This document shows, piece by piece, positions 6,725-49,660 of a stretch of DNA of 64,000 bases. The stretch spans positions 26,536,001 through 26,600,000 of the forward strand of contig OX597822.1 in the NCBI GenBank assembly GCA_951406725.2, written 5' to 3'. The notes under the pieces were generated by a model, which was not told where the DNA came from, searched no databases, and was given only the letters and a program-made list of their open reading frames with translations. The translations under genes and the position numbers were made by a program. Origin of the DNA: Octopus vulgaris. Taxonomy: Eukaryota. Position 1 is the stretch's first letter; each line of letters opens with the position of its first letter.

Positions 6725-6731
<7 letters not shown>

Positions 6732-6951
6732 TGGTTATATGATTATATGAATATCACTATGGACTCCGTGTGGGCAGTCATCTAAAAGTTTTTGTTCATC
6801 ATGATGCTGACATAAGTTCCTTGTTTTTCCTGATGAGAAGGCGGCATAATGCACCCTTTATTCCTTCGGAATTGAGAATATGCAGTCTTCGAAACATATG
6901 TCGAGAATAAAGGAATTTTGTTAAATCGTCGTTCGACTCCATTCTTTCATT

Positions 6952-7063: not shown

Positions 7064-8566
7064 TACACTAGCGGCGTTGCTCCGGATTAAGTAGCATAAT
7101 TGGTGAGTCGCGAAATCCTCAAATCGTGATATTTCACGGTTCCTCGGTGGTAATTTTTCGCATGCAAATATATGTGGTAGTCGTCTGTTCCATATGGAAG
7201 AAACAATGGATACATCGAGGGATCACGGGATCGATGTAACTCTGCAATTCTCAAACCACCTTGTTTCAACTAAAGAACAATATCCCTGTTTCTGTAGGTT
7301 TATTTGACATTAAAATTGCAGCTTCAGCCCCTGTTGGTGTATTAAAACGCCGAGCATGTTCTCCCTTGAAACGCTTATTTTCCCGAAGTTGATGGTAAAT
7401 TTGACCTTGGATTCTTAAAGATGGATTCTAACCTTGGACAGATGCATCTTTGTGACCAAAACTGGTCATAGCAAACAGAAAGTTTGTACTCCCTGAGCCA
7501 TGACAAAAAGTGTTCGCTGAATTGACTTTCCCCAGTGAACAGTTCTTGAAATAACTGAGGCAGCAGTGGAAATGGATCCAGTGTAACCATTCCATTTCCA
7601 CAAAACATTCCTGGTGATTCTCCAGTAAATTTCTTAGCACCACACTGACAGAGTTTGGTCCTTTCTCCAATTGTAGCCTTGTTACATGGGTCATTTTTGT
7701 CATACAGTAGTGCAGAACCTTTAGCATTTTGAATCTCGCGTTGTCTTAAATTTTTATACCCGTTTCTATCAGCAATCAAACGCTGTTGTCTCTCTTCTTC
7801 AGATTCATTTCTCCTTACAACTGTATGGCGAAATAAATCTTGCTCCTGTCTTTCTTGACGCTCACCGAAGGTTTCATTTGTTTGCCTCTGTCTAGAAAGT
7901 CGTTCGTCCCTTGCACCACATCTTTCAGATTGGCGAGACACTCTTTGACTTTGGTTTTGCCTAGAAAGTCGTTCTTCCCTTGCATCACAACTTTCAGATT
8001 GGCGACGAAGCTTCACCCTTTGTGCATGTGGAATATTTGATCAAGTGGACTTCCTTTTCCGTGGCATAATGGGTGTCTCAAGAAAAATTAAGAAAAAGAA
8101 AATGTTAAAAAAGAAGAGGTGTTCATTAATAACTTTTTTGCTATAACTCTAGTGATGTTTTGTCATAGATAAAATATGTAAATTTGTAGAATTTTTCTAT
8201 AAACGAGAGGTAATTTTGTTGTTTTGCGTTAAATAATAGAAAACCCCCGTGATAATAGAGGTTCAAGTACTAAAGTTATGGGCTTCCAAAATTTGCAATA
8301 CATTAGGATTTCTTAATATTATTGAAATTTGCTGGTATTTTGGAAATAGGCATAATTTCTGTTCATTTACCTACAGTTCAAATTTCATTTAAATCAATTG
8401 GAAAAATTTTTCAGTGGGGAGCATGATCAAAATGAAATATACTTATAAAAGTAACCTGGTTAATGTAGTTTCAGAATATATATGGTTATGAGGGTCTATC
8501 TCTCAAGCCCAAGGAGGAGTTCGATAACAAGCAGACAGACAGAGGTTACAACATTATATGTATAGA
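7064..8566 (-). mobile_element. Internally deleted Helitron/Helentron-type element with the Rep N-terminal region
   Basis: Pseudo-ORF has coiled repeats, CQCGAKKFTGESPGMFCGNG, FAMTSFG, RIQGQIYH and IAELHRSRDPSMYPLFLPYG, typical of the RepHel N-terminus. Ends resemble ACTAGC..CGGCGTTGC and CAGACAGACAGA..TTATATGTATAGA. Confidence 0.82.
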
Positions 8567-10229: not shown

Positions 10230-11279
10230 ACTGATAGATATGGCGGAAAGGAGACTTTCCTCATGTAAATAATCTAATCTAGCCAAAAACAAAAATGCAG
10301 CCCAATCAAATACGCTCAGTTATACCAATAGAGCTCTCAGGCTTTATAAGTGACCAACTCCATATTTGATACTATCAAAAAGAACAATGGTTCATGATAT
10401 ATGTGGATTCCTAAATGCCTAAACTCTTTAGTAATGGAAGGCAAGGTTTATGATATCCGAGGAATATCATCTTCTTCCATCATCTTTTTCTTGTTCTTTA
10501 TGAAGTTCAGGCTTTCGGCAGGCGAAGAGAAAAGACTTCAGGCATAAATGCTATTTACAACTGGTTTAGTTACAGGAAAGGTGAAGGGTGCTGCTCACAG
10601 CTACCATCTTAAGCTCCGAATAGTGTGGGCGCATTGCCTCTGGAGATAGATAGGCAGAAAGAGCTGCCTGTGTTGGTGTTCAGCCAATGCTGCTGTCTAA
10701 TGGCGCCAAAAGAGAAAAGACAGAACTGAATCGATTTTCCGTCTACATCGTTCCCATCGCGAGCCTCGTTGTTATCTCGCGCATGGCAAATGGATGCAGG
10801 TGAGGTATCGCTCCAGTCTCGGAGATGGCAATGGCTGCCGCGAGATGTCATCCAATATGGCGCTGGCTGTTTGTGCCGCTATAACTCCTTGCACGGATAA
10901 TATGAAATATTTAGATAGATATCCAGGAAAACTGATAGAAAATAAACTAGTGAAGATGCTAACCCAATGTACAAAAGGAGTAAGTCCGAAGATGAAGAAC
11001 TTCTAACCAAGATACCAACTGAGAAACGACGAGGAAGTTCAGATTGACAACAATTGGGTCATACTTTACCGATCACTGTCGCTAAACGACCTTGACTCAC
11101 GCATGAATGTCGAACTCTCTCACCTATTCTATGCATTTAAATATGTGTAACATGTGCTACAAAGGATCTGTCACCGCTGTGTATGGTCTTCAAAAACAAA
11201 ACACGAACAATGAAAGTACCCGAGGCCTAGATGGGAAAGTACGGGAAAGCAACAATGATTTGTTTAAACTTCTCATTTT

Positions 11280-11342
<63 letters not shown>

Positions 11343-11708
11343 AGATAGGGGTTGAAAATTCAACCCACCATGGGATAATATATATCCAATATACTGCTAG
11401 ATAGGTACCCAACAAAAATAATACATAGATGTTAAAAATTGTCAAGCAATCAGTTCATCTATTGTATTAAATGGGTAAAGGTAATAATATTACCGTAAAT
11501 TAATACTACAAAATTAGAGAATGGAGAAACATACTTAAATCAGTAAAACATCAACTATCCGATGATACTCAATCCATACTTTAATACACCATTACATATG
11601 AGTAAAGGCAATATATAAAATGAAATGAGATATACAGTAATAGTAAAAGTAAAAAGATAAAGAGATATAAGTAAAAAATTTCAAATATAATATGCAAATA
11701 AATCAAAA

Positions 11709-11816
11709 CTGACAGCTGTTTCGGCAGTGAGGACAGTCATACCTCATTTAACCTATAAGCCATAAAGGCAGGTATAAATGAGGCATTAACAAGGATGCCC
11801 CACGGCCTCTTCAGAG
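11709..11816 (-). ncRNA. Hammerhead ribozyme motif (mirror copy of 12716-12823)
   Basis: Reverse complement in the left arm of the palindrome. Confidence 0.7.
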
Positions 11817-12154
11817 AATTAAATTAAATTTGTTATAATAGTGAAAAATATTATATAATCATATACATATAAATATAAAAATATAAAAATGTAAAATATA
11901 AAAACTTATATATCATAATGCTACACTTATATAATATAATACACATTTGTACAAAAAGGAAGGTAAACAGAACAATATAAAACAAAATATATAACAGTGT
12001 ATATATTAATATTAATAAGTACCGATATTATACATATTTGGCTAATAGTTTTTTTTATAAAAAAAGGCTAACACATATGGAGATGAAAAATAATAATTAA
12101 ATCCGTGGTACAGTTCATAAAATTCTAAAGCTATAAAAGTTAATAAAAATTACT

Positions 12155-12201
<47 letters not shown>

Positions 12202-12331
12202 TAATAATAATAAAAAAATACTAAAAATAGATACAGTTAAGTTAGCACCAAGTCCATCCTTTCAAGCTTGAAAGGATGGACTTGGTGCTAACTTAACTGT
12301 ATCTATTTTTAGTATTTTTTTATTATTATTA

Positions 12332-12378
<47 letters not shown>

Positions 12379-12715
12379 AGTAATTTTTATTAACTTTTAT
12401 AGCTTTAGAATTTTATGAACTGTACCACGGATTTAATTATTATTTTTCATCTCCATATGTGTTAGCCTTTTTTTATAAAAAAACTATTAGCCAAATATGT
12501 ATAATATCGGTACTTATTAATATTAATATATACACTGTTATATATTTTGTTTTATATTGTTCTGTTTACCTTCCTTTTTGTACAAATGTGTATTATATTA
12601 TATAAGTGTAGCATTATGATATATAAGTTTTTATATTTTACATTTTTATATTTTTATATTTATATGTATATGATTATATAATATTTTTCACTATTATAAC
12701 AAATTTAATTTAATT

Positions 12716-12823
12716 CTCTGAAGAGGCCGTGGGGCATCCTTGTTAATGCCTCATTTATACCTGCCTTTATGGCTTATAGGTTAAATGAGGTATGACTGTC
12801 CTCACTGCCGAAACAGCTGTCAG
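12716..12823 (+). ncRNA. Hammerhead ribozyme motif with long stem II
   Basis: CT-CTGAAGA-GGC.GTGGGG...GCCTCATTTA...TAAATGAGGT...CCTCAC.GCC-GAAAC-AGCT-GTC-AG. Stem III is the palindrome ACAGCTGT; stem I is only about 2 bp. Confidence 0.7.
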
Positions 12824-13025
12824 TTTTGATTTATTTGCATATTATATTTGAAATTTTTTACTTATATCTCTTTATCTTTTTACTTTTACTATTACTGTAT
12901 ATCTCATTTCATTTTATATATTGCCTTTACTCATATGTAATGGTGTATTAAAGTATGGATTGAGTATCATCGGATAGTTGATGTTTTACTGATTTAAGTA
13001 TGTTTCTCCATTCTCTAATTTTGTA

Positions 13026-13080
<55 letters not shown>

Positions 13081-13082
<2 letters not shown>

Positions 13083-14250
13083 GGGTGCGTAAGGTATTTG
13101 AAGACATACCTTTTTGGGTCATTGCTGTATTTTTGGCTTACTCAGTATATCTTTGTTTCAGAAAATAATAATGGCAGACCCTCAGCTTACTCAAGAAGTG
13201 AAGAGGCATGCTGTCATTGTGGTTATAAAGGCTGAGTATAGATATTTAGAAATATCTCGATTTTTAAAAGTTGCCAGATCTTTCGTCTACAAAGTTTGTA
13301 AGTAGCTAGAGACTGAAGATGGAAATGTATCACTAGTATCAAAGCATAAAAAGCATTCTAAACACTCTGAAATCATCAGAATACTTGAATTTATCTAGCA
13401 AGTTCAACAGACCGTTGATTACAATCCCAGAAAGTGTATGAGGCCGATTGCAAAAAATCTCCATGTGTCAGAAGGAACAGTCAGAAAAGTTGTCCACGAA
13501 GATATCAGATATAAGTTTTATATAATGAGGAAAGGACAATTTATCAGAAAAAGCAAAAGAAAGTCACTACAACGGATCTAAAAGGCTCTTAAACAAACTG
13601 AAAAATCCAGAAGATGTGATTTGATTTTTCTCAAACGAGAAAAACTTCGACCAAAATCAAAAAGTTAACAGAAGAAATGACAGATGGTTATGTGCAGATC
13701 CTTCTGAAGTTCCAAGTGTTATGCACACAAAATTTCATGTAACTGTCATGGTTTTAGGGGTTGTCTACATTGAGGTCCTGGAAATAATTGTTAAGTCTTG
13801 GATAGACAATGTATGCAATGGAAGGGCATATGTGTTTCAGTAAGGCTCTGCACTATCACACATGGCTCCAGTAACACAGGAATGCATGGCTGAAATTTTT
13901 CATGATCACATAACCTCCTAATTTCTCAAACCATTGGATTATTACATGTGGAGCGTTGTTGAGAGAGAGGTCAATGAACATGCCCATAACAGCAAAGATT
14001 CTTTAAAAGCTGCCACAGTCAGAGTAATGTCCGAAATGGACCAGAACCACTTGATTCGAGCATGTACATGATTTAGATCTCCTATAGAAGCAGTTGCTGA
14101 AGCTGAGGGTAGCTTTATTAAATAACATTATAGAAAAGAAGGTTTATTTTTATCCTCATAGCATTTAGTGATAAATAAAGTTATTATCTGTTATTATATA
14201 GCTGTTTTTTTTATAAGCATAAATTTGTCCTCAAATATTTTACGCACCCT
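13081..14250 (+). mobile_element. Tc1/mariner superfamily transposon, maT/DD37D-like, defective
   Basis: ~26-bp TIRs (CAGGGTGCGTAAGGTATTTGAAGACA / TGTCCTCAAATATTTTACGCACCCTC) enclosing a broken transposase. Confidence 0.88.
13171..14123 (+). pseudogene. Transposase pseudogene
   Basis: MADPQLTQEVKRHAVIV..., FFSNEKNF, NRRNDRW, VMVLGVV, YVFQ*GSALSH, PLDYYMWSVVE, IEAVAEAEGSFIK*; several stops and frameshifts. Confidence 0.85.
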
Positions 14251-14740: not shown

Positions 14741-14932
14741 AAATCATATATATATATACATATATATTTGTTTTGCAAGATTTTTTATATGAAATCTTGT
14801 GTTGAAACAGATATTGTTGTATTTAGGAATAGTCATTTTGCCAGTTTAGCCAATAAAAACACACCCACTATATATTTGGTGTTACTTTGCTTCAGCGTCA
14901 TTCACTTTTTACATTAATCTTAATCTTATTTC

Positions 14933-14976
14933 GACCAGAGTTCTTTCGTCACACTCCTGTGACCTCATCAGTGGTC
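14933..14976 (-). ncRNA. Minimal hammerhead ribozyme motif (mirror copy, intact 5-bp stem I)
   Basis: Minus strand reads GACCA-CTGATGA-GGTCACAGGAGTGTGAC-GAAAGAACTC-TGGTC. Confidence 0.75.
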
Positions 14977-15283
14977 CTTTGCTTTCTTCTTTCTTATTTG
15001 CGTGTTTCTCCCTACTAACGGTCAGCCATTTTGCATTTTGTATTCCTATTGTATGTGTCTTCATTTGCGCATGCGTATACCTCTATGTGTGTTTATATTT
15101 AGTTAGTGTGTGTGTGGGGGGAGTGCCTGTAATATTTGTATCTCCTGTTTATATACACATATAATAGGAATACAAAATACAAAATGGCTGACTGTTAGTA
15201 AGGAGAGACAGGCAAATAAGAAAGAAGAAGTAAGGAGAGACAGGCAAATAAGAAAGGAGAGACAGGCAAATAAGAAAGTAAAG

Positions 15284-15327
15284 GACCACTGATGAGGTCA
15301 CAGGAGTGTGACGAAAGAACTCTGGCC
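15284..15327 (+). ncRNA. Minimal hammerhead ribozyme motif
   Basis: GACCA-CTGATGA-g-GTCAC-AGGAGT-GTGAC-GAAAG-AA-CTC-TGGCC. Confidence 0.75.
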
Positions 15328-15439
15328 GAAATAAGATTAAGATTAATGTAAAAAGTGAATGCCGCTGAAGCAAAGTAACACCAAATATATAGTGGGTGTG
15401 TTTTTGTTGGCTAAACTGGCAAAATGACTATTCCTAAAT

Positions 15440-15483
<44 letters not shown>

Positions 15484-15484
15484 C

Positions 15485-16130
15485 ATACTAACTTAAAATT
15501 CACACTCCGTGCAGACTTTGAGGCTAGCTCCTGCACAGGGCTAATTGGGCCTGTGGCCCAAAACTAAAGAGAAATACTAAAGCATTTATTGATATCCTAT
15601 CACCTCAGATTTACATCACAAAGTATCACATTTGGAGAATTTCGTATCATTGTGACATTTGGAGGTCAATGTAAAGCAGCAGGATAAACAATATTCATAA
15701 TTTTACCATTTGGTGTGAGTATAAAGAGATTGTTGCCATTTCCAGCTCTGGAACAACCAACATAGGAGCTGACCATGGGAAAAAAGCACTGCTGCCAGAG
15801 GTGAAGTCCAACAATTTTGAGTGATTGTCCCTGACTCTTGTTAATTGACATTACAAAACTAACTCTTACTGGAGAGTGAAGACTCTTGAATTTAAAGGGC
15901 ATGTCTGCTGGAGTCAGTGGAATTCTTGAAATAAGCACATTTTCTCCCTTTCCTTGTCCAGTGAGGATTGTTGCTTTTAAAAGATGTGAATGGATTTGCC
16001 TGATAATCAGTCTTGTTCCATTGCACAGCTTTGGGAGAATCAGATATCTCAAAAGCATGATTGTAAATCCTTTCTTCAATGTCAGTTTGTGAGAGGGTAT
16101 TCCAGGAGGATCCAAAGAGTTAAGAAATGT
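15485..16130 (-). mobile_element. Helitron/Helentron PIF1 helicase C-terminus and terminus
   Basis: PPGIPSHKLTLK, PKLCNGTRL, MSINKSQGQSL, (SHGQL)YVGCSR and NIVYP are PIF1/RepHel motifs; frameshifted. Confidence 0.9.
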
Positions 16131-16151
16131 AGTAGTTATTATTATTATTGA

Positions 16152-16197
<46 letters not shown>

Positions 16198-31272: not shown

Positions 31273-33120
31273 TTTTATTATTACCCACAAGGGGCGAACA
31301 TAGAGGGGACAATACAACCTGATTTGGGGTCAGATTATCGGATGGGATTACACAAAAGGTGAATTTAAAAATTTACAAAAATGACAAAATAGCAAAAAAT
31401 CGAATGAAGAACAGACCGGAAGACATTACGGATGGAGTGGGAGCGGGTTTATCTCGGACCCCACGAGCCCGCCTCCCCACTGATACTTTGGTTTCGTCTA
31501 GTTTTACATTTATGTGGTATCATCCACTCGCAACTTTCGTGCTACATCTTTCCATCGTTCTTCGTACACTCTCTTAGTCAGGCATTTTCTCTCCAGCCCT
31601 ATCTTCCTTTTCAGGTGAAAGATGAAGTAATTCATCAAACCAGAGCCGGAGATGAACTCGTCTTCCATATCACCTCTTTCGCAATTGCTACTACAACGAG
31701 AAAACAATTTTTACCTTCTTTCGCGAGGAAATCTGGTGGGTCAATTTTTATAATAGACTCAGTCGACAGCTGTACTCTTCGTGTGCTTGACAACAGCTGT
31801 TCGGCATAAACCCACACCTCAGACACGACCGAACAATGAACAATAGCGTGCGGGACGGTTTCCCTATCCCGCCTGCATCTTGGACATATCGGACTGTCTT
31901 GGCCACCGTGCCTTGCGAGTTTATCCCGAACAGGTAGAGCTCCTCTGTAGCATTGCCATGCCAGAGACTTCTGGAAGTTGTCCAGTGTCTTCGGCTCGAA
32001 CGTACGTCGGAACAGACTGGCCAGCTGATTATCGTCGAGACCTAGGGTTTCCCCCAAGGTATCTTCACATTCCGCCTCTACCAACCCTCTATAGAAGAAT
32101 GAGGTTGACCCCCCACCGCAGGCGTTGCCCGAGCGACGGAATAGCAGGAGAGCCTTGCGACACTCCGTGTACCATGTGCCCAGTTTCGATCTACGATTCA
32201 GCCAGGTTTCCCATCCACCGAAACTAGTGAACTTAGGAAACATCGGTTTTGCTAGCGGAGACCACACCCGTTAACCTTCCAGGTAGAGCCACAGATGTCT
32301 TAACCTCAGCGCATGTCTACGCATCATCAGCCAAGGAATCCCTAGCCCACCCTTTAACGGTTGTTGACAGCAAGTAGAGCGTTTCACAAGTGGTTTCCCG
32401 CCCTTCCACAAGAAGTAGAAGAGCTGTCTTTCCAACTTGATCATCTACAAATCAGGGCAAGGAACGACGGAAAGGCGGTAGGTGATAACCGATGCGATAA
32501 ACACATTGGCTACCTCCGCCCTCCCTTTCAGGGATAGCCACTGCCAAGACCAGGTCTTGGTTACTGCAGCCACCCTGCTCGATACCTCGCCCCAATTCTT
32601 CTCTATTTGGAGGTCTGGACCGAACCAAACCCCTAGCAACTTAATCGGACCCTCCGTCCAACGTCCCACGACGCTGTCAGGAGGCATCGACTTGCCTCTC
32701 CAGGTGCCGAGTTGCAAGCCAACTGACTTTTCACGATTAACTTTTGCTCCTGCCACCGTCTCGTAAGCCTCTATGGCCTCGCCTACCCTCTGTAGGTGAT
32801 CCATTTCGGTTACGATGATGGTGATGTCATCTGCGTACGCTGACACCAATTTTCCACAACCTGGCTGTCTCGGAATGCCGCTCAGTTTTCGCAGTAATGG
32901 CTCAAGAGCCACCACGTACAAAAGCGGGGAGAGCGGACACCCTTGACGAACCGAGCGCTTGATGTTGAACGGTTTCGACAAGAAGCCGTTCACCCGAACT
33001 GCCGAGTCGATGTTGTCGTAAATTTGGATAATCCACCTGAGGAAGCCAAGGCCCAGCCCGAACTGTGCCAGGGCAGATACCAGGTAGCGATGGTCGACCC
33101 TATCGAATGCTTTAGATTGA
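31273..33120 (-). mobile_element. 5'-truncated Tx1/L1-clade LINE (RT, CCHC finger, 3' UTR)
   Basis: QSKAFDRVDH, SVRQGCPLSPLLY, SAYADD, KLLGVWF, CPRC..ETVPHAIVHC; stops and frameshifts; 3' tail at 31273-31312. Confidence 0.93.
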
Positions 33121-33297
33121 TTGTTACTCTCAAGAAAGAAGTTACAAATAATGGGAGGTGGTGAGAGCAACAATAGCAGCGCACTCCACAATTTATGTAA
33201 CCTGCTTTTGTAATGCCCCTTTCATCCGATGCCCCCGTGGCAGATAATATAGATCATCATTATCATCATCATCATCATCAACAACAACAACAACATT

Positions 33298-33470: not shown

Positions 33471-34351
33471 GTTGCTTTTGCACAGCTTCTTGTGCTGGCG
33501 ATGTACTACAGCATCAGATGTTCACTACCAGTGAACTAAGGTAACACCCCTTATTTTTCGAGCACCTTCCGGAGTATTCGAGCGGTTCCAAGCAGTGCTG
33601 TTTTCTGCAAGTACTCCACCTTTATTGTAGCCCCTATTTGTTCCACATACTTTTCGAGATTTTTGCACACTGTTTCCAGGGCTCCGACAATTATTGGTAC
33701 TACTGCTAACTTTTTCATCGACCACAACTACTTAACATCCCAAGCTAACCTGTCATATCTCTCGACTTTTCTTTCTTCCTTATCGCATACCTTGTTGCCA
33801 GCTGGGCATGCTATATCTATGATCCAGCATAGTTTGTTTTCTTTCTCAATTAAGACTATATCTGGCTTCCTATTTTCTATCTCATGGTCGCACTGAATCA
33901 TAAAGTCCCATTGGATCTTTGCATTTCTATTTTCGACAATGCTTTCAGGTTTGTGGTCGTACCAATTTTTTGCTCTGTCAAGTCCATACTTTTTGCAAAG
34001 TCATATCAATGAGGCGGCATGTTTTTTGCCTGAAGTCTTTTACTATGATGTCTGGCCTATTCGCGTCTCTCTTTCTGTCAGTTTGAATAGTGAAGTTCCA
34101 AAGGAGTGAGATGTGGTCATTTTCTAGCACTGGAGGTGGTTTGTGTTCCCACCAGTTTTTATCATGGGGCAAGTCCAGGCTTTTGCAAATTACCCAGTGA
34201 ATATATTGTGCAGGTCTATCATGCCTGTTGAGATACTCTGTAGGCGCAAGAAGACTGCACTTGGAGACAACATGATCAATGGTTTCATTTTGTTGTTGAC
34301 ATACACGACATGTTGGGCTACTGCCGTTCTTTAATATGTTGGCCTGGTAGC
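33471..34351 (-). mobile_element. Chimeric R4/Dong-clade fragments (two different families joined at ~34000) in (TAA)n
   Basis: 34351-34001 reads CRVC..ETIDHVVSKC..YLNRHD..ANRPDIIV..LIDMT. 34000-33550 reads LCKKYGL..WYDHKP..RKPDIV..IIDIACP..LQKTALLGTARILRKVL. Confidence 0.85.
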
Positions 34352-34394
<43 letters not shown>

Positions 34395-34471
34395 CATTAT
34401 TATTATTATTATCATTATTATTATTATAATTATCATTATTATCATTATTATTATTATCATTATTATTATCA

Positions 34472-34515
<44 letters not shown>

Positions 34516-41757: not shown

Positions 41758-42780
41758 AATCCTTAAATCCTTAAAAATGTTTCAGCCCGAAAGCTGCAGT
41801 CATGCTGGGGCACCTCCGTTGATCGTGCTACACTAGTATGTGAAACCACCTCTGATACGTGGCACTTGGTCAACAAGGGAGTTCGACGCCGCTGCCCGCA
41901 TCTGTGTTTCCTGCCGAGAGGTAGGTTCATCTGGAACCTCTGACAAGAAGAGATCAAGTTTTGTTTTAAAGAAATCCACATCCAGACCATGCAGGTCTCT
42001 CAGGCATTTAGGAAGGATATTGAAGAACTGTGGTCCCCTGAAACCCAAGCTGTTGTAGTATCTGGTCCTGTATTTTGATGGTGATGTTGGGATCTTTGTC
42101 ACCATGCAGTGGCGCCCTGTTCTGCTGTTGCGGTAACTTTCAATGCCAAAATTTAGGATAAGGCCCTCCAGGATTTTCCAGATGTATATCACTGCATATC
42201 TTTCCTGCCTTCGCTCCAGGGAGAAGAGTTTTAATACTTTCAGTCTTTCCCAGTAGCTGATATGTTGCATTGAGACGATCTGCTTAGTGTAGCTTCCTTG
42301 GATTGCTTCAAGTTCTGCTGTTAACTTTATATTGTGTGGTGACCATAGTTGGGAGCAGTAGTCCAAGCGGCTGAGGATGAATGTTTTCCAAAGGACCATC
42401 AGTGTCTCCTTCTCTCTTGTTCTGAAAGTTTGGAGGATCTATCCAGCTAGCCGTCTGCATTTTATTACCAAATTGGCAATATGCACTTGAAAAGATGTAT
42501 CATTGCTCATGTCAGTGCCCCGGGCCAGTGTATCCGGTCTGCATGTCGTTCAGCTTTGTGTGCCAGTAGCACAGGGCTTGGAACTTCCCTGCATTAAACT
42601 GCATGTTGTTGTCCTCAGCTCACCTGTATATTGTATCCAACTCCCATTGCAGATGTGCAATATTTCCAGAGTTTTGTTTTGTCTGAGAGACTTTTGTGTC
42701 ATCTGTATAGCTAGCAAGGGTGGTCATCTTAGCAACTGAGGGCATGTCTGAAAGGGCCACTATGAACAGCAGTAGCCCTA
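41758..42780 (-). mobile_element. 5'-truncated CR1-clade LINE (RT C-terminus and 3' UTR)
   Basis: SYTDDTK, SRLDYCSQLWSP, SYWERLKVLKLFSLERR, FKTKLD; tail ends in (TTTAAGGA)2. Confidence 0.9.
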
Positions 42781-47884: not shown

Positions 47885-47945
47885 ATATACATGCACATAT
47901 ATAATTATAAATTTACATCTCTTTATATATGTTATGTATGTGTAT

Positions 47946-48041
<96 letters not shown>

Positions 48042-48126
48042 TTCGAGACAAAACCACTATTTTGCAAAACAAACAAGGAAAGACTTAATCAATACATAAA
48101 AATTTTAATATAAAATAAATAAACCG

Positions 48127-48170
48127 CCACTACAATCGTTTCATGTCTTCAAATGACATTCGTCAGGTGG
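48127..48170 (-). ncRNA. Minimal hammerhead ribozyme motif (mirror copy)
   Basis: Exact reverse complement of 48341-48384. Confidence 0.88.
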
Positions 48171-48340
48171 ATTTCCGATCTTCTAATCAGTTTTAATTTA
48201 TTAATTAGCATTGCACAAAAAAATAATAATGACCTGTATATATCAAATTACATACAGGCATATATATATATATACATACATACATACTTGTGTGTGTGTG
48301 TTTGTTTTTGCTAATTAAAACTGATTAGAAGATCGTAAAT

Positions 48341-48384
48341 CCACCTGACGAATGTCATTTGAAGACATGAAACGATTGTAGTGG
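48341..48384 (+). ncRNA. Minimal type-I hammerhead ribozyme motif
   Basis: CCAC-CTGACGA-ATGTC-ATTTGAA-GACAT-GAAAC-GATT-GTA-GTGG; all three stems are Watson-Crick. Confidence 0.88.
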
Positions 48385-48562
48385 CGGTTTATTTATTTTA
48401 TATTAAAATTTTTATGTATTGATTAAGTCTTTCCTTGTTTGTTTTGCAAAATAGTGGTTTTGTCTCAAATTAATATTATATAATATTTTACTATAAAATT
48501 GGATTTAATCCTAAATCTGATTTTTTTCCCTGTAAATTTGGATTTATTCCCTAATATTTATT

Positions 48563-48604
<42 letters not shown>

Positions 48605-49660
48605 AAAACAAACACACACACACACAAGTATGTATGTATGTATATATATATATATATATATGCCTGTATGTAATTTGATGTATACAGGTCATTATTATTT
48701 TTTTGTGCAATGCTAAATTTATATCACAATAGGTCCTCTAAATGTGTTTAGATTAATCTATGGAGAGCAGAAGTGAAAGACGACTTAACATTTTAAAATA
48801 GATTTATTCTCAAATGGTTAATTTTTATCTTGTCTTCTGTCATTGCATACACAGCTTAGATGTGATTCCAGAGTTCTTGAAATGTATCTTGCAGCTGCTT
48901 TTCAATTCTAACTTGAATTATATTAATTATTGTTGCATGCACATCTTCTATAGTTTAGTTGAATACGCGGTAGTCGTTAAATGTCCACCTAAAGTAAAGG
49001 TGAAGCTACTTTTAAATATAATATTTGAATTTTATTATTGCACATTGATTTTATAAAATGATCCTATATATGTATAGATATATCCATGTGTCTGGGTATC
49101 TGTATATCCATGGATATCTTCTATCATTACCGGTTTCATTCATGTAACTGCAGCTATGCTGGGGCACCACCTTGCCTAGTCAAACCCTTCAATTTTTTTA
49201 AAACCTAGTTCTTATTCTATCAATCCCTTTTACTAAACTGCTAGGTTACAGGTAAATCTACTCAAAAGGTTTTGGTTGGCTGAGGCTATAGAAGAAGAGA
49301 CTTTCCCAAGGTTCCACACAGTGGGACTGAACCCAGAATCATGTGGTTGGGAAGTGAGGTTCTTACCACACTGTGACACCTGTGCCTATATGCATGCATA
49401 TGGTTATAATCATCATCATCGTCTTCATCAACATTTAGTGTCTGTTTTCCATACTCTCATGGGTTGGGCAGCTTGGCAGGAATTGGCAAGGCAAGGACCT
49501 TCACTGGGTTCCATAGCCTCTTTTGGCTCAGTTTCTACAGCTGGATGCCCTTCCTAATGACAGCCACTTAACAGAGTGTGCTTTTTATGTGGCACCATCA
49601 CGAGTGCCTTTTATGTGGCACCAGCACCAGTACTTTTTATATAGCATGACCACCACACCT

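What the first reader, a model, noticed from the sequence alone, without database searches (positions are those of the whole stretch)
11339..13029. ~1.5 kb spacer-less near-perfect palindrome carrying two mirror-image hammerheads
Seen: arms of ~760 bp meet at ...TTTCAAG|CTTGAAA... with no spacer and only one indel that I noticed. The left side extends ~165 bp further and both ends are in (TA)n. Long perfect palindromes are normally unstable, so this is either a very young insertion made by fold-back synthesis or an assembly artefact. If transcribed it would form a 760-bp dsRNA, a potential ADAR or siRNA substrate (inference). Stem I of this hammerhead is weak, so it may be inactive.
Basis: partly seen in the sequence, partly recalled or inferred. 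Interest (0 to 1): 0.75.

Follow-up and report, generated by a model that had tools for sequence, protein, structure and literature searches.

The report
Young head-to-head Penelope-type retroelement insertion
The 1.5-kb palindrome is two mirror-image copies of the end of an abundant repeat carrying a predicted self-cutting (hammerhead) RNA motif, most likely pasted recently into a TA repeat by a Penelope-type jumping gene; the layout is well known, although its 165-base folded tail is longer than usual.

Summary
Observation confirmed: arms 11503-12266 and 12267-13029 (764/763 nt) meet with no spacer and differ only by one base in an A-run; the left side runs 165 nt further; (TA)n lies on both sides. 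Each arm holds a type I hammerhead with full core, palindromic stem III, 2-bp stem I and an 85-nt stem II. The sequence is a high-copy repeat of one animal species (20 of 24 listed runs, 8 studies). The family continues past the centre in 4 of 4 runs, and the right arm ends at a family-wide end joined to (TA)n in 3 of 4 runs, which a read fold-back would not produce. This is the published layout of Penelope-like elements: 5'-truncated copy, adjacent inverted copy, one-sided tail, (TA)n target, hammerhead. Two more such pairs lie in the window. The centre junction itself was not seen in reads, no ORF was found, and transcription of this locus is unshown. The weak stem I is a family trait, also seen in Drosophila virilis Penelope. 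Ordinary; modest interest for the 165-nt five-hairpin tail.

The parts
11283..11337 (.). (TA)n microsatellite, left part of the likely target site
11338..11502 (-). 165-nt one-sided 3' tail between the family's short end (11503) and long end (about 11338-11341); predicted five hairpins (11494-11480, 11469-11419, 11415-11394, 11387-11373, 11371-11345)
   Evidence: fold -41.4 kcal/mol, z -3.96, 0 of 200 shuffles as good; hairpin limits and 3 of 3 listed family substitutions at unpaired sites; long end joined to (TA)n in run X19
11503..12266 (-). Left arm: 5'-truncated copy of the repeat's 3' region (AT-rich, 22.5% GC, no ORF over about 50 codons, includes an (ATT)n tract)
11711..11814 (-). Type I hammerhead motif, left arm (predicted cut after the GUC at 11711)
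12260..12273 (.). Zero-spacer junction 12266|12267; a copy-specific truncation point, since the family continues past it; lies at the axis of a short latent hairpin (TTTC ... GAAA, 6-7-nt loop) of the family sequence
   Evidence: background rate 1.4-5.7%, post hoc
12267..13029 (+). Right arm: inverted copy ending at the family's short end, directly in (TA)n through a TAT overlap
   Evidence: same end joined to (AT)n in runs X1, X19, X2
12718..12821 (+). Type I hammerhead motif, right arm: core 12718-12724, stem II 12725-12809 (85 nt), GAAA 12810-12813, palindromic stem III 12813-12820, cleavage triplet ending 12821
13027..13079 (.). (TA)n microsatellite, right part of the likely target site

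Best explanation
This is likely a real and very recent insertion of the 3' end of a high-copy, hammerhead-bearing repeat, likely made by the reverse transcriptase and GIY-YIG endonuclease of a Penelope-like element (PLE) in a (TA)n run. Shown: the geometry, the motif, the high copy number, the two family-wide ends joined to (TA)n, and that the centre is a truncation point. Inferred mechanism (committed, about 0.5 of the mechanism weight): the PLE protein nicks both strands of the TA run; one nick primes reverse transcription at the long end of the RNA and the other at the short end 165 nt upstream, each via a TAT/TA overlap; both cDNAs copy the same RNA molecule to the same stopping point and are joined there, giving two identical head-to-head arms, no spacer, one long and one short end. 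The palindrome is a by-product with no role of its own. Because the arms point away from the centre, any read-through RNA meets the antisense arm first and would bury the hammerhead in a 763-bp duplex; the two hammerheads are never on one strand, so they cannot form the cis-dimer that such minimal motifs are reported to need.
For: Layout matches PMC8557442 (passages): 5'-truncated copies, adjacent inverted 5'-truncated copy, one-sided tail, (TA)n targets, HHR in pLTRs; and PMC3846280 (passages): head-to-head arrangement with palindromes at the junction. Motif fits the metazoan PLE consensus in the supplement of PMC4209133 except for the missing unpaired base before helix II and the long helix II. 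In vitro a PLE protein cuts and extends both target strands and starts reverse transcription at two internal RNA sites that bound the tail (PMC11167929, parts 1-2 of 4). 20 of 24 listed runs, 8 studies, one species label, hold 62-88% of 97 sampled words. 1381 contigs of run X1 lie on 953 nt with a spread of identities (582 at 99+, 457 at 95-99, 291 at 90-95, 51 lower). Loose ends of (AT)n at 11503 in X1 (3 contigs), X19 (9), X2 (2) and at 11341 in X19 (7). Contigs run past the centre in 4 of 4 runs, by up to 52 nt, and the loose ends printed at 12265 (X1, X19, X20) are non-mirror sequence. Both arms share the letter at 10 of 10 variable arm positions, including sites where 96-100% of family depth has another letter (11911, 11976). 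3 of 3 inverted hammerhead pairs in the window have one short and one long end in (TA)n. Different sequences flank the two TA runs, a mariner-like element on the right.
Against: No RT/GIY-YIG ORF is present in the element or was found in the window by a motif scan, and no genome is held, so the link to a PLE protein is by layout and motif only. The tail is 165 nt, against 30-40 bp in the papers read. No read or contig was seen crossing the centre as a mirror, and none bridges both flanks; the contigs available could not show either. Rfam finds no hammerhead; the active fold costs 5.2 kcal/mol over the minimum. Arm identity may be inflated by assembly polishing. The coincidence of the junction with a latent hairpin fits fold-back at least as well as twin priming. 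X1 may be the source sample and is not independent.
Confidence: 0.75

Rival explanations
1. Same kind of insertion, but the mirror arm was made by fold-back self-priming: a single cDNA primed at the long end stalled just past the centre, folded on the latent TTTC/GAAA hairpin, copied itself, and was resolved at the short end.
For: The junction sits at (or within half a base of) the axis of a 4-bp stem with a 6-7-nt loop in the family sequence (loose ends); such a hairpin lies at 1.4-5.7% of positions of the element. PMC3846280 proposes self-priming for PLE junction palindromes; PMC8557442 attributes the tail to endonuclease resolution. Identical arms follow naturally.
Against: Observed centre is a perfect palindrome, so the loop would have had to be corrected at two positions. 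The model needs an extra step to stop exactly at the family's short end. The hairpin observation is post hoc, single, and the continuation was printed only for a variant with A at 12266.
Confidence: 0.3
2. Assembly or long-read fold-back artefact (or a chimera of two copies).
For: Zero spacer and near-perfect identity are typical of fold-back reads and polishing; the single indel is in a homopolymer; no read evidence for the centre was obtained.
Against: A fold-back read mirrors the DNA continuously and would repeat the 165-nt tail, the TA run and the left flank; instead the right arm stops at a family-wide end seen in three studies and enters a different flank. Two older, diverged pairs with the same design lie in the window.
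Confidence: 0.12
3. The repeat is a non-coding retrozyme (tandem hammerhead repeat with circular RNA) riding on PLE enzymes rather than the 3' end of a coding PLE.
For: No ORF in 929 nt; type I HHR with palindromic stem III; earlier notes on this genome describe such retrozymes (unchecked); runs guessed to be RNA hold the family.
Against: No internal direct repeat in 929 nt and the family continues at least 30 nt further, so a monomer would exceed about 960 nt, against about 170-400 nt for metazoan retrozymes (PMC7229834, passages).
Confidence: 0.2
4. A purpose-built dsRNA or siRNA source, or a foldback/MITE DNA transposon.
For: A read-through RNA would form a very stable duplex (predicted -1184 kcal/mol).
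Against: Ends are asymmetric, the family runs on past the centre, the copy is very young, and the letter changes in the RNA-like run X2 are the same ones seen in DNA runs.
Confidence: 0.04

Closest known systems
Inverted 5'-truncated insertions of endonuclease-positive Penelope-like elements (Penelope/Poseidon, Neptune, Hydra, Naiad; PMC8557442 passages, PMC3846280 passages)
   Same: 5'-truncated direct copy with adjacent inverted copy head to head, one-sided tail, (TA)n target without visible TSD, hammerhead near the 3' end, dispersed high copy number.
   Different: Tail 165 nt and strongly folded, against 30-40 bp; arms 763 nt, longer than the roughly 180-220-bp inverted pLTRs of the rotifer families; no ORF seen, so clade not assigned (Naiads are reported to lack canonical hammerheads, which argues against Naiad).
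Minimal and D. virilis-type PLE hammerheads (PMC4209133, parts 1-2 of 4 and supplement passages)
   Same: Type I, full core, G10.1-C11.1 pair, short palindromic helix III, U-rich 5' and AU-rich 3' flanks, 2-bp helix I as in D. virilis Penelope.
   Different: Helix II is 85 nt with internal loops, against 6-8 bp; no unpaired base between position 9 and 10.1.
PAc Poseidon element of Anolis (PMC11167929, parts 1-2 of 4)
   Same: Two fixed 3' ends bounding a tail, AT-rich target, stem-loop structure at the start sites, hammerhead upstream.
   Different: There the tail is 30-40 nt inside the ORF start; here 165 nt, five predicted hairpins, no ORF start evident.
Metazoan non-LTR retrozymes (PMC7229834 passages; bioRxiv 10.64898/2026.07.22.740005 part 1 of 5)
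   Same: Non-coding as far as seen, type I hammerhead, AT-rich, linked to PLEs.
   Different: No tandem units within 929 nt; unit would be more than twice the reported size; circles not tested.

Membership tests
EN+ Penelope-like element | Single ORF with PLE-type RT and GIY-YIG endonuclease | not testable with these tools
   Copy is truncated before any ORF; no genome held; motif scan of the window found none; collection scans gave only chance 19-21-nt matches.
EN+ Penelope-like element | Type I hammerhead in the terminal repeat | tested here: met
   Motif and fold; compared with consensus. Not matched by Rfam.
EN+ Penelope-like element | 5' truncation with adjacent inverted copy, head to head | tested here: met
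EN+ Penelope-like element | Optional tail at one end only, reflecting two fixed 3' ends | tested here: met
   Short end 11503 and long end about 11341, each joined to (TA)n in run contigs. Length 165 nt lies outside the 30-40 bp described.
EN+ Penelope-like element | (TA)n / AT-rich target | tested here: met
EN+ Penelope-like element | Target-site duplication | tested here: inconclusive
   Both ends are in (TA)n, where a TSD cannot be told.
EN+ Penelope-like element | Self-cleavage of the hammerhead | not testable with these tools
   Needs an in vitro assay.
Non-LTR retrozyme | Tandem monomers of about 170-400 nt, each with a hammerhead | tested here: not met
   No internal direct repeat in 929 nt; size range from PMC7229834.
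Non-LTR retrozyme | Abundant linear and circular monomer RNAs | not testable with these tools
   Only contigs of runs guessed to be RNA were available.
MITE / foldback DNA transposon | Symmetric terminal inverted repeats bounding a fixed unit | tested here: not met
   Ends differ by 165 nt; the family continues past the centre.

The most novel reading that the evidence does not exclude
This family marks its two reverse-transcription start sites with a 165-nt, five-hairpin RNA module instead of a 30-40-nt tail, and its insertions are made by twin priming on one RNA with the two cDNAs joined at latent micro-hairpins; young copies such as this one would be a genomic read-out that separates twin priming from fold-back self-priming, an unsettled step of Penelope-type transposition, and the 85-nt stem II may stand in for the missing stem I contacts of the ribozyme.
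Probability: 0.2. Interest if true: 0.5.

Novelty: new member of a known kind. Interest (0 to 1): 0.2.

Why it matters
As a locus it is ordinary retroelement debris. Its value is as a clean, nearly unmutated record of one insertion: how PLEs make head-to-head copies is stated as open in PMC8557442 and PMC3846280, and a family with two fixed ends 165 nt apart and identifiable junctions lets twin priming and fold-back be tested by counting. Young perfect palindromes of this size could also be a source of long dsRNA if a host transcript reads through them, which is not shown here.

Tried and rejected
Own-genome search: none held. Rfam: nothing at gathering threshold; at E<=10 only miRNA-hairpin matches to the palindrome centre and TA runs, below gathering score and explained by the symmetry. 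Collection scans for relatives with the upstream ORF: metagenomes 0 and 2 loci, GTDB genomes 3, viral contigs 1; all six are isolated 12-21-nt chance matches. No listed holder is on record as RNA: no RNA holder listed, no evidence either way on expression. The letter changes in X2 (guessed RNA) recur in DNA runs, so no editing signal, but contigs drop rare variants. One search gave no cover at the centre; one search listed no strand-changing joint, but short dead-end branches are often dropped from such contigs and X1 and X19 were read only to about 80% and 76%, so this is no evidence of absence. Two X19 contigs end 15 nt past the centre, the length a mirror branch would have, but their letters are not shown: inconclusive. 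A SECIS-like reading of the long stem II was considered by eye and dropped (no AUGA/AA/GA arrangement; motif recalled). Naiad membership is disfavoured (canonical core present); two 12-nt motifs of the element were not found in the one supplement file of PMC8557442 held as text (one strand only). Earlier-finding look-ups by place and sequence returned nothing for this family. Left flank as Helitron rests on a recalled peptide resemblance; Pfam gave no match for it.

Full report
Observation. The palindrome is as described. The arms are 11503-12266 and 12267-13029, meet with no spacer, and differ by one base in an A-run and no substitution. The left side carries 165 nt more (11338-11502); (TA)n runs lie at 11283-11337 and 13027-13079. 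Zero substitutions in 763 sites bound the divergence at 0.4%, subject to possible homogenising by assembly polishing.

The hammerhead. Each arm has one type I motif pointing outward: 12718-12821 on + and 11711-11814 on -. It has the full core, an 85-nt stem II closed by G-C, a palindromic stem III (ACAGCUGU, which can pair between molecules at -12.5 kcal/mol), a GUC triplet and a 2-bp stem I followed by a U-U loop and four further pairs; the active fold costs 5.2 kcal/mol over the minimum. The domain folds better than shuffles (z -3.66). Rfam does not recognise it. Family variation respects the fold: the one listed substitution in the motif (11733) turns a G-U into a G-C pair and the three listed insertions lie in or next to the apical loops. 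No variant at 5% or more is listed in stem I in four runs, and a 318-nt contig of X2 spans the motif with its two differences outside it, so the weak stem I is the family form. A 2-bp helix I with palindromic helix III is what PMC4209133 reports for D. virilis Penelope, and it reports low activity and dimer dependence for PLE hammerheads (parts 1-2 of 4 read; supplement passages; one supplement file was not searchable and might hold long helix II cases). Activity is untested here.

What the repeat is. 20 of 24 listed runs from 8 studies, all under one species label, hold 62-88% of the 97 sampled words. Laid on the left arm, four runs give 1381, 466, 2426 and 73 contigs with a wide identity spread: a dispersed, high-copy family; single contigs reach depth 5000 beside others at 14-65 in X1, which suggests hundreds of copies or more but is no count. 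Two family-wide ends join (TA)n: 11503 (X1 3 contigs, X19 9, X2 2; not among the rows shown for X15, 136 rows were not shown) and about 11341 (X19, 7 contigs). On the other side the family runs on past the centre in 4 of 4 runs, and the printed continuation (X1, X19, X20) is not a mirror. So the left arm plus tail is a 5'-truncated copy ending at the long end, and the right arm is an inverted copy ending at the short end. There is no ORF in the 929 nt and no internal direct repeat.

Real or artefact. A fold-back read copies whatever lies before the turn, so it would mirror the tail, the TA run and the left flank. Here the mirror stops exactly at a family-wide end and passes into (TA)n and then a different flank, a mariner-like element with terminal repeats at 13081 and about 14250 (weak Pfam HTH_Tnp_Tc3_2, E 0.004, below cut-off). 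Both arms share the same letter at all 10 arm positions listed as variable, including two where 96-100% of family depth differs, so they come from one template, or were merged by polishing. Against: I saw no read across the centre and none from flank to flank, and X1 may be the source sample. I put artefact at about 0.12.

Context. Two older inverted pairs with outward-facing hammerhead-like motifs lie at 14811-15449 and 48029-48553, and a single-arm stub with a 54-nt stem II at 6830-6902 (their folds alone are not significant, z -1.4 to +0.6, and my strict scan missed the two pairs, which I read by eye). All 3 inverted pairs have one short and one long end in (TA)n, with tails of about 43, 83 and 165 nt, and each short end finishes in TAT. 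Earlier notes on this genome report the same layout and a near-strict short/long rule; they are unchecked notes and only my three cases are evidence.

Mechanism. PMC8557442 describes inverted 5'-truncated copies next to the 5' end, a 30-40-bp one-sided tail and (TA)n targets for PLEs (passages); PMC3846280 describes head-to-head junction palindromes and proposes self-priming (passages); PMC11167929 shows in vitro that a PLE protein cuts and extends both target strands and starts at two internal sites that bound the tail (parts 1-2 of 4). I commit to twin priming on one RNA: one nick primes at the long end, the other at the short end, both cDNAs stop at the same base and are joined. That gives identical arms, no spacer and the long/short rule in one step; all of it is inferred. 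The rival is fold-back of one cDNA. In its favour, the junction sits at the axis of a 4-bp stem (TTTC with GAAA, 6-7-nt loop) in the family sequence; such hairpins lie at 1.4-5.7% of positions in the element depending on the loop sizes allowed. This is one post hoc case, the continuation was printed only for a variant with A at 12266, and the observed centre is perfect rather than looped.

The tail. The 165 nt between the two ends fold into five hairpins (-41.4 kcal/mol, z -3.96, 0 of 200 shuffles), the last ending 7 nt from the long end; 3 of 3 listed family substitutions there are at unpaired sites (about 0.07 by chance). It is likely the RNA signal read by the PLE protein (inference). It is four to five times longer than the tails in the papers read; my searches returned no description of this family, but they cover open-licence papers only and Repbase/Dfam could not be searched.

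Consequences. A read-through RNA from either side meets the antisense arm first; the hammerhead region would pair at -220 kcal/mol against -41 for its own fold, so it would be silenced, and a 763-bp duplex would be a plausible ADAR or Dicer substrate (established knowledge; ADAR papers seen as listings only). Nothing here shows that this locus is transcribed or edited.

Verdict. Real sequence feature, most likely a genuine young insertion with the standard Penelope-type layout: a new member of a known kind, membership by layout and motif with the ORF untested. Interest 0.2; the long folded tail, the 85-nt stem II and the junction-hairpin coincidence are the leads worth a count across the genome.

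Noticed in passing
window 14770-15481: Older head-to-head pair (arms 14811-14992 / 15268-15449, 97%) with outward hammerhead-like motifs, a tail of about 43 nt on the left and (TA)n at both ends.
   Followed up: partly
window 47924-48716: Head-to-head pair (48029-48198 / 48313-48482, 99%) with a compact hammerhead motif near 48345, tail of about 83 nt on the right, then (TA)n and a further inverted piece 48602-48716 matching 48205-48311 (92%): a nested double inversion.
   Followed up: partly
window 6728-6951: Single-arm stub between two (TA)n runs with a type I hammerhead (6830-6902, +): 5-bp stem I, palindromic stem III, 54-nt stem II; a second long-stem-II family unrelated in sequence to the focal one.
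   Followed up: partly
window 13081-14250: Decayed Tc1/mariner-like transposon with terminal inverted repeats directly right of the TA run.
   Followed up: partly
window 15666-16190 (-), 7375-8040 (-), about 11000-11200 (+): Helitron-like debris: Pif1 2B domain at 15666-16187 (Pfam E 4e-13); the other two by recalled resemblance only, no Pfam match.
   Followed up: partly
window 11911 and 11976: This copy's letters are carried by notable depth in run X1 but by next to none in X15, X19 and X2, a hint of a recently expanded subfamily in the source population; summed depth is no copy count.
   Followed up: no
window 11345-11371: Other family members replace the loop of the last tail hairpin by a different sequence while keeping a GGGTT/AACCC-type stem (loose ends at 11361-11362 in X1, X19, X2), suggesting a conserved terminal stem.
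   Followed up: no
window 13010-13026 (+) and mirror: The short end lies 3 nt after a CTAAT...TAG stretch resembling a branch point and 3' splice site; PLE 5' regions are known to hold introns. Speculative.
   Followed up: no
window 31635-33221 (-), 33978-34514 (-), 41833-42438 (-): Fragments of non-LTR retrotransposon ORFs (RT-like reading frames; zf-RVT E 1e-4 for 33978-34514).
   Followed up: no
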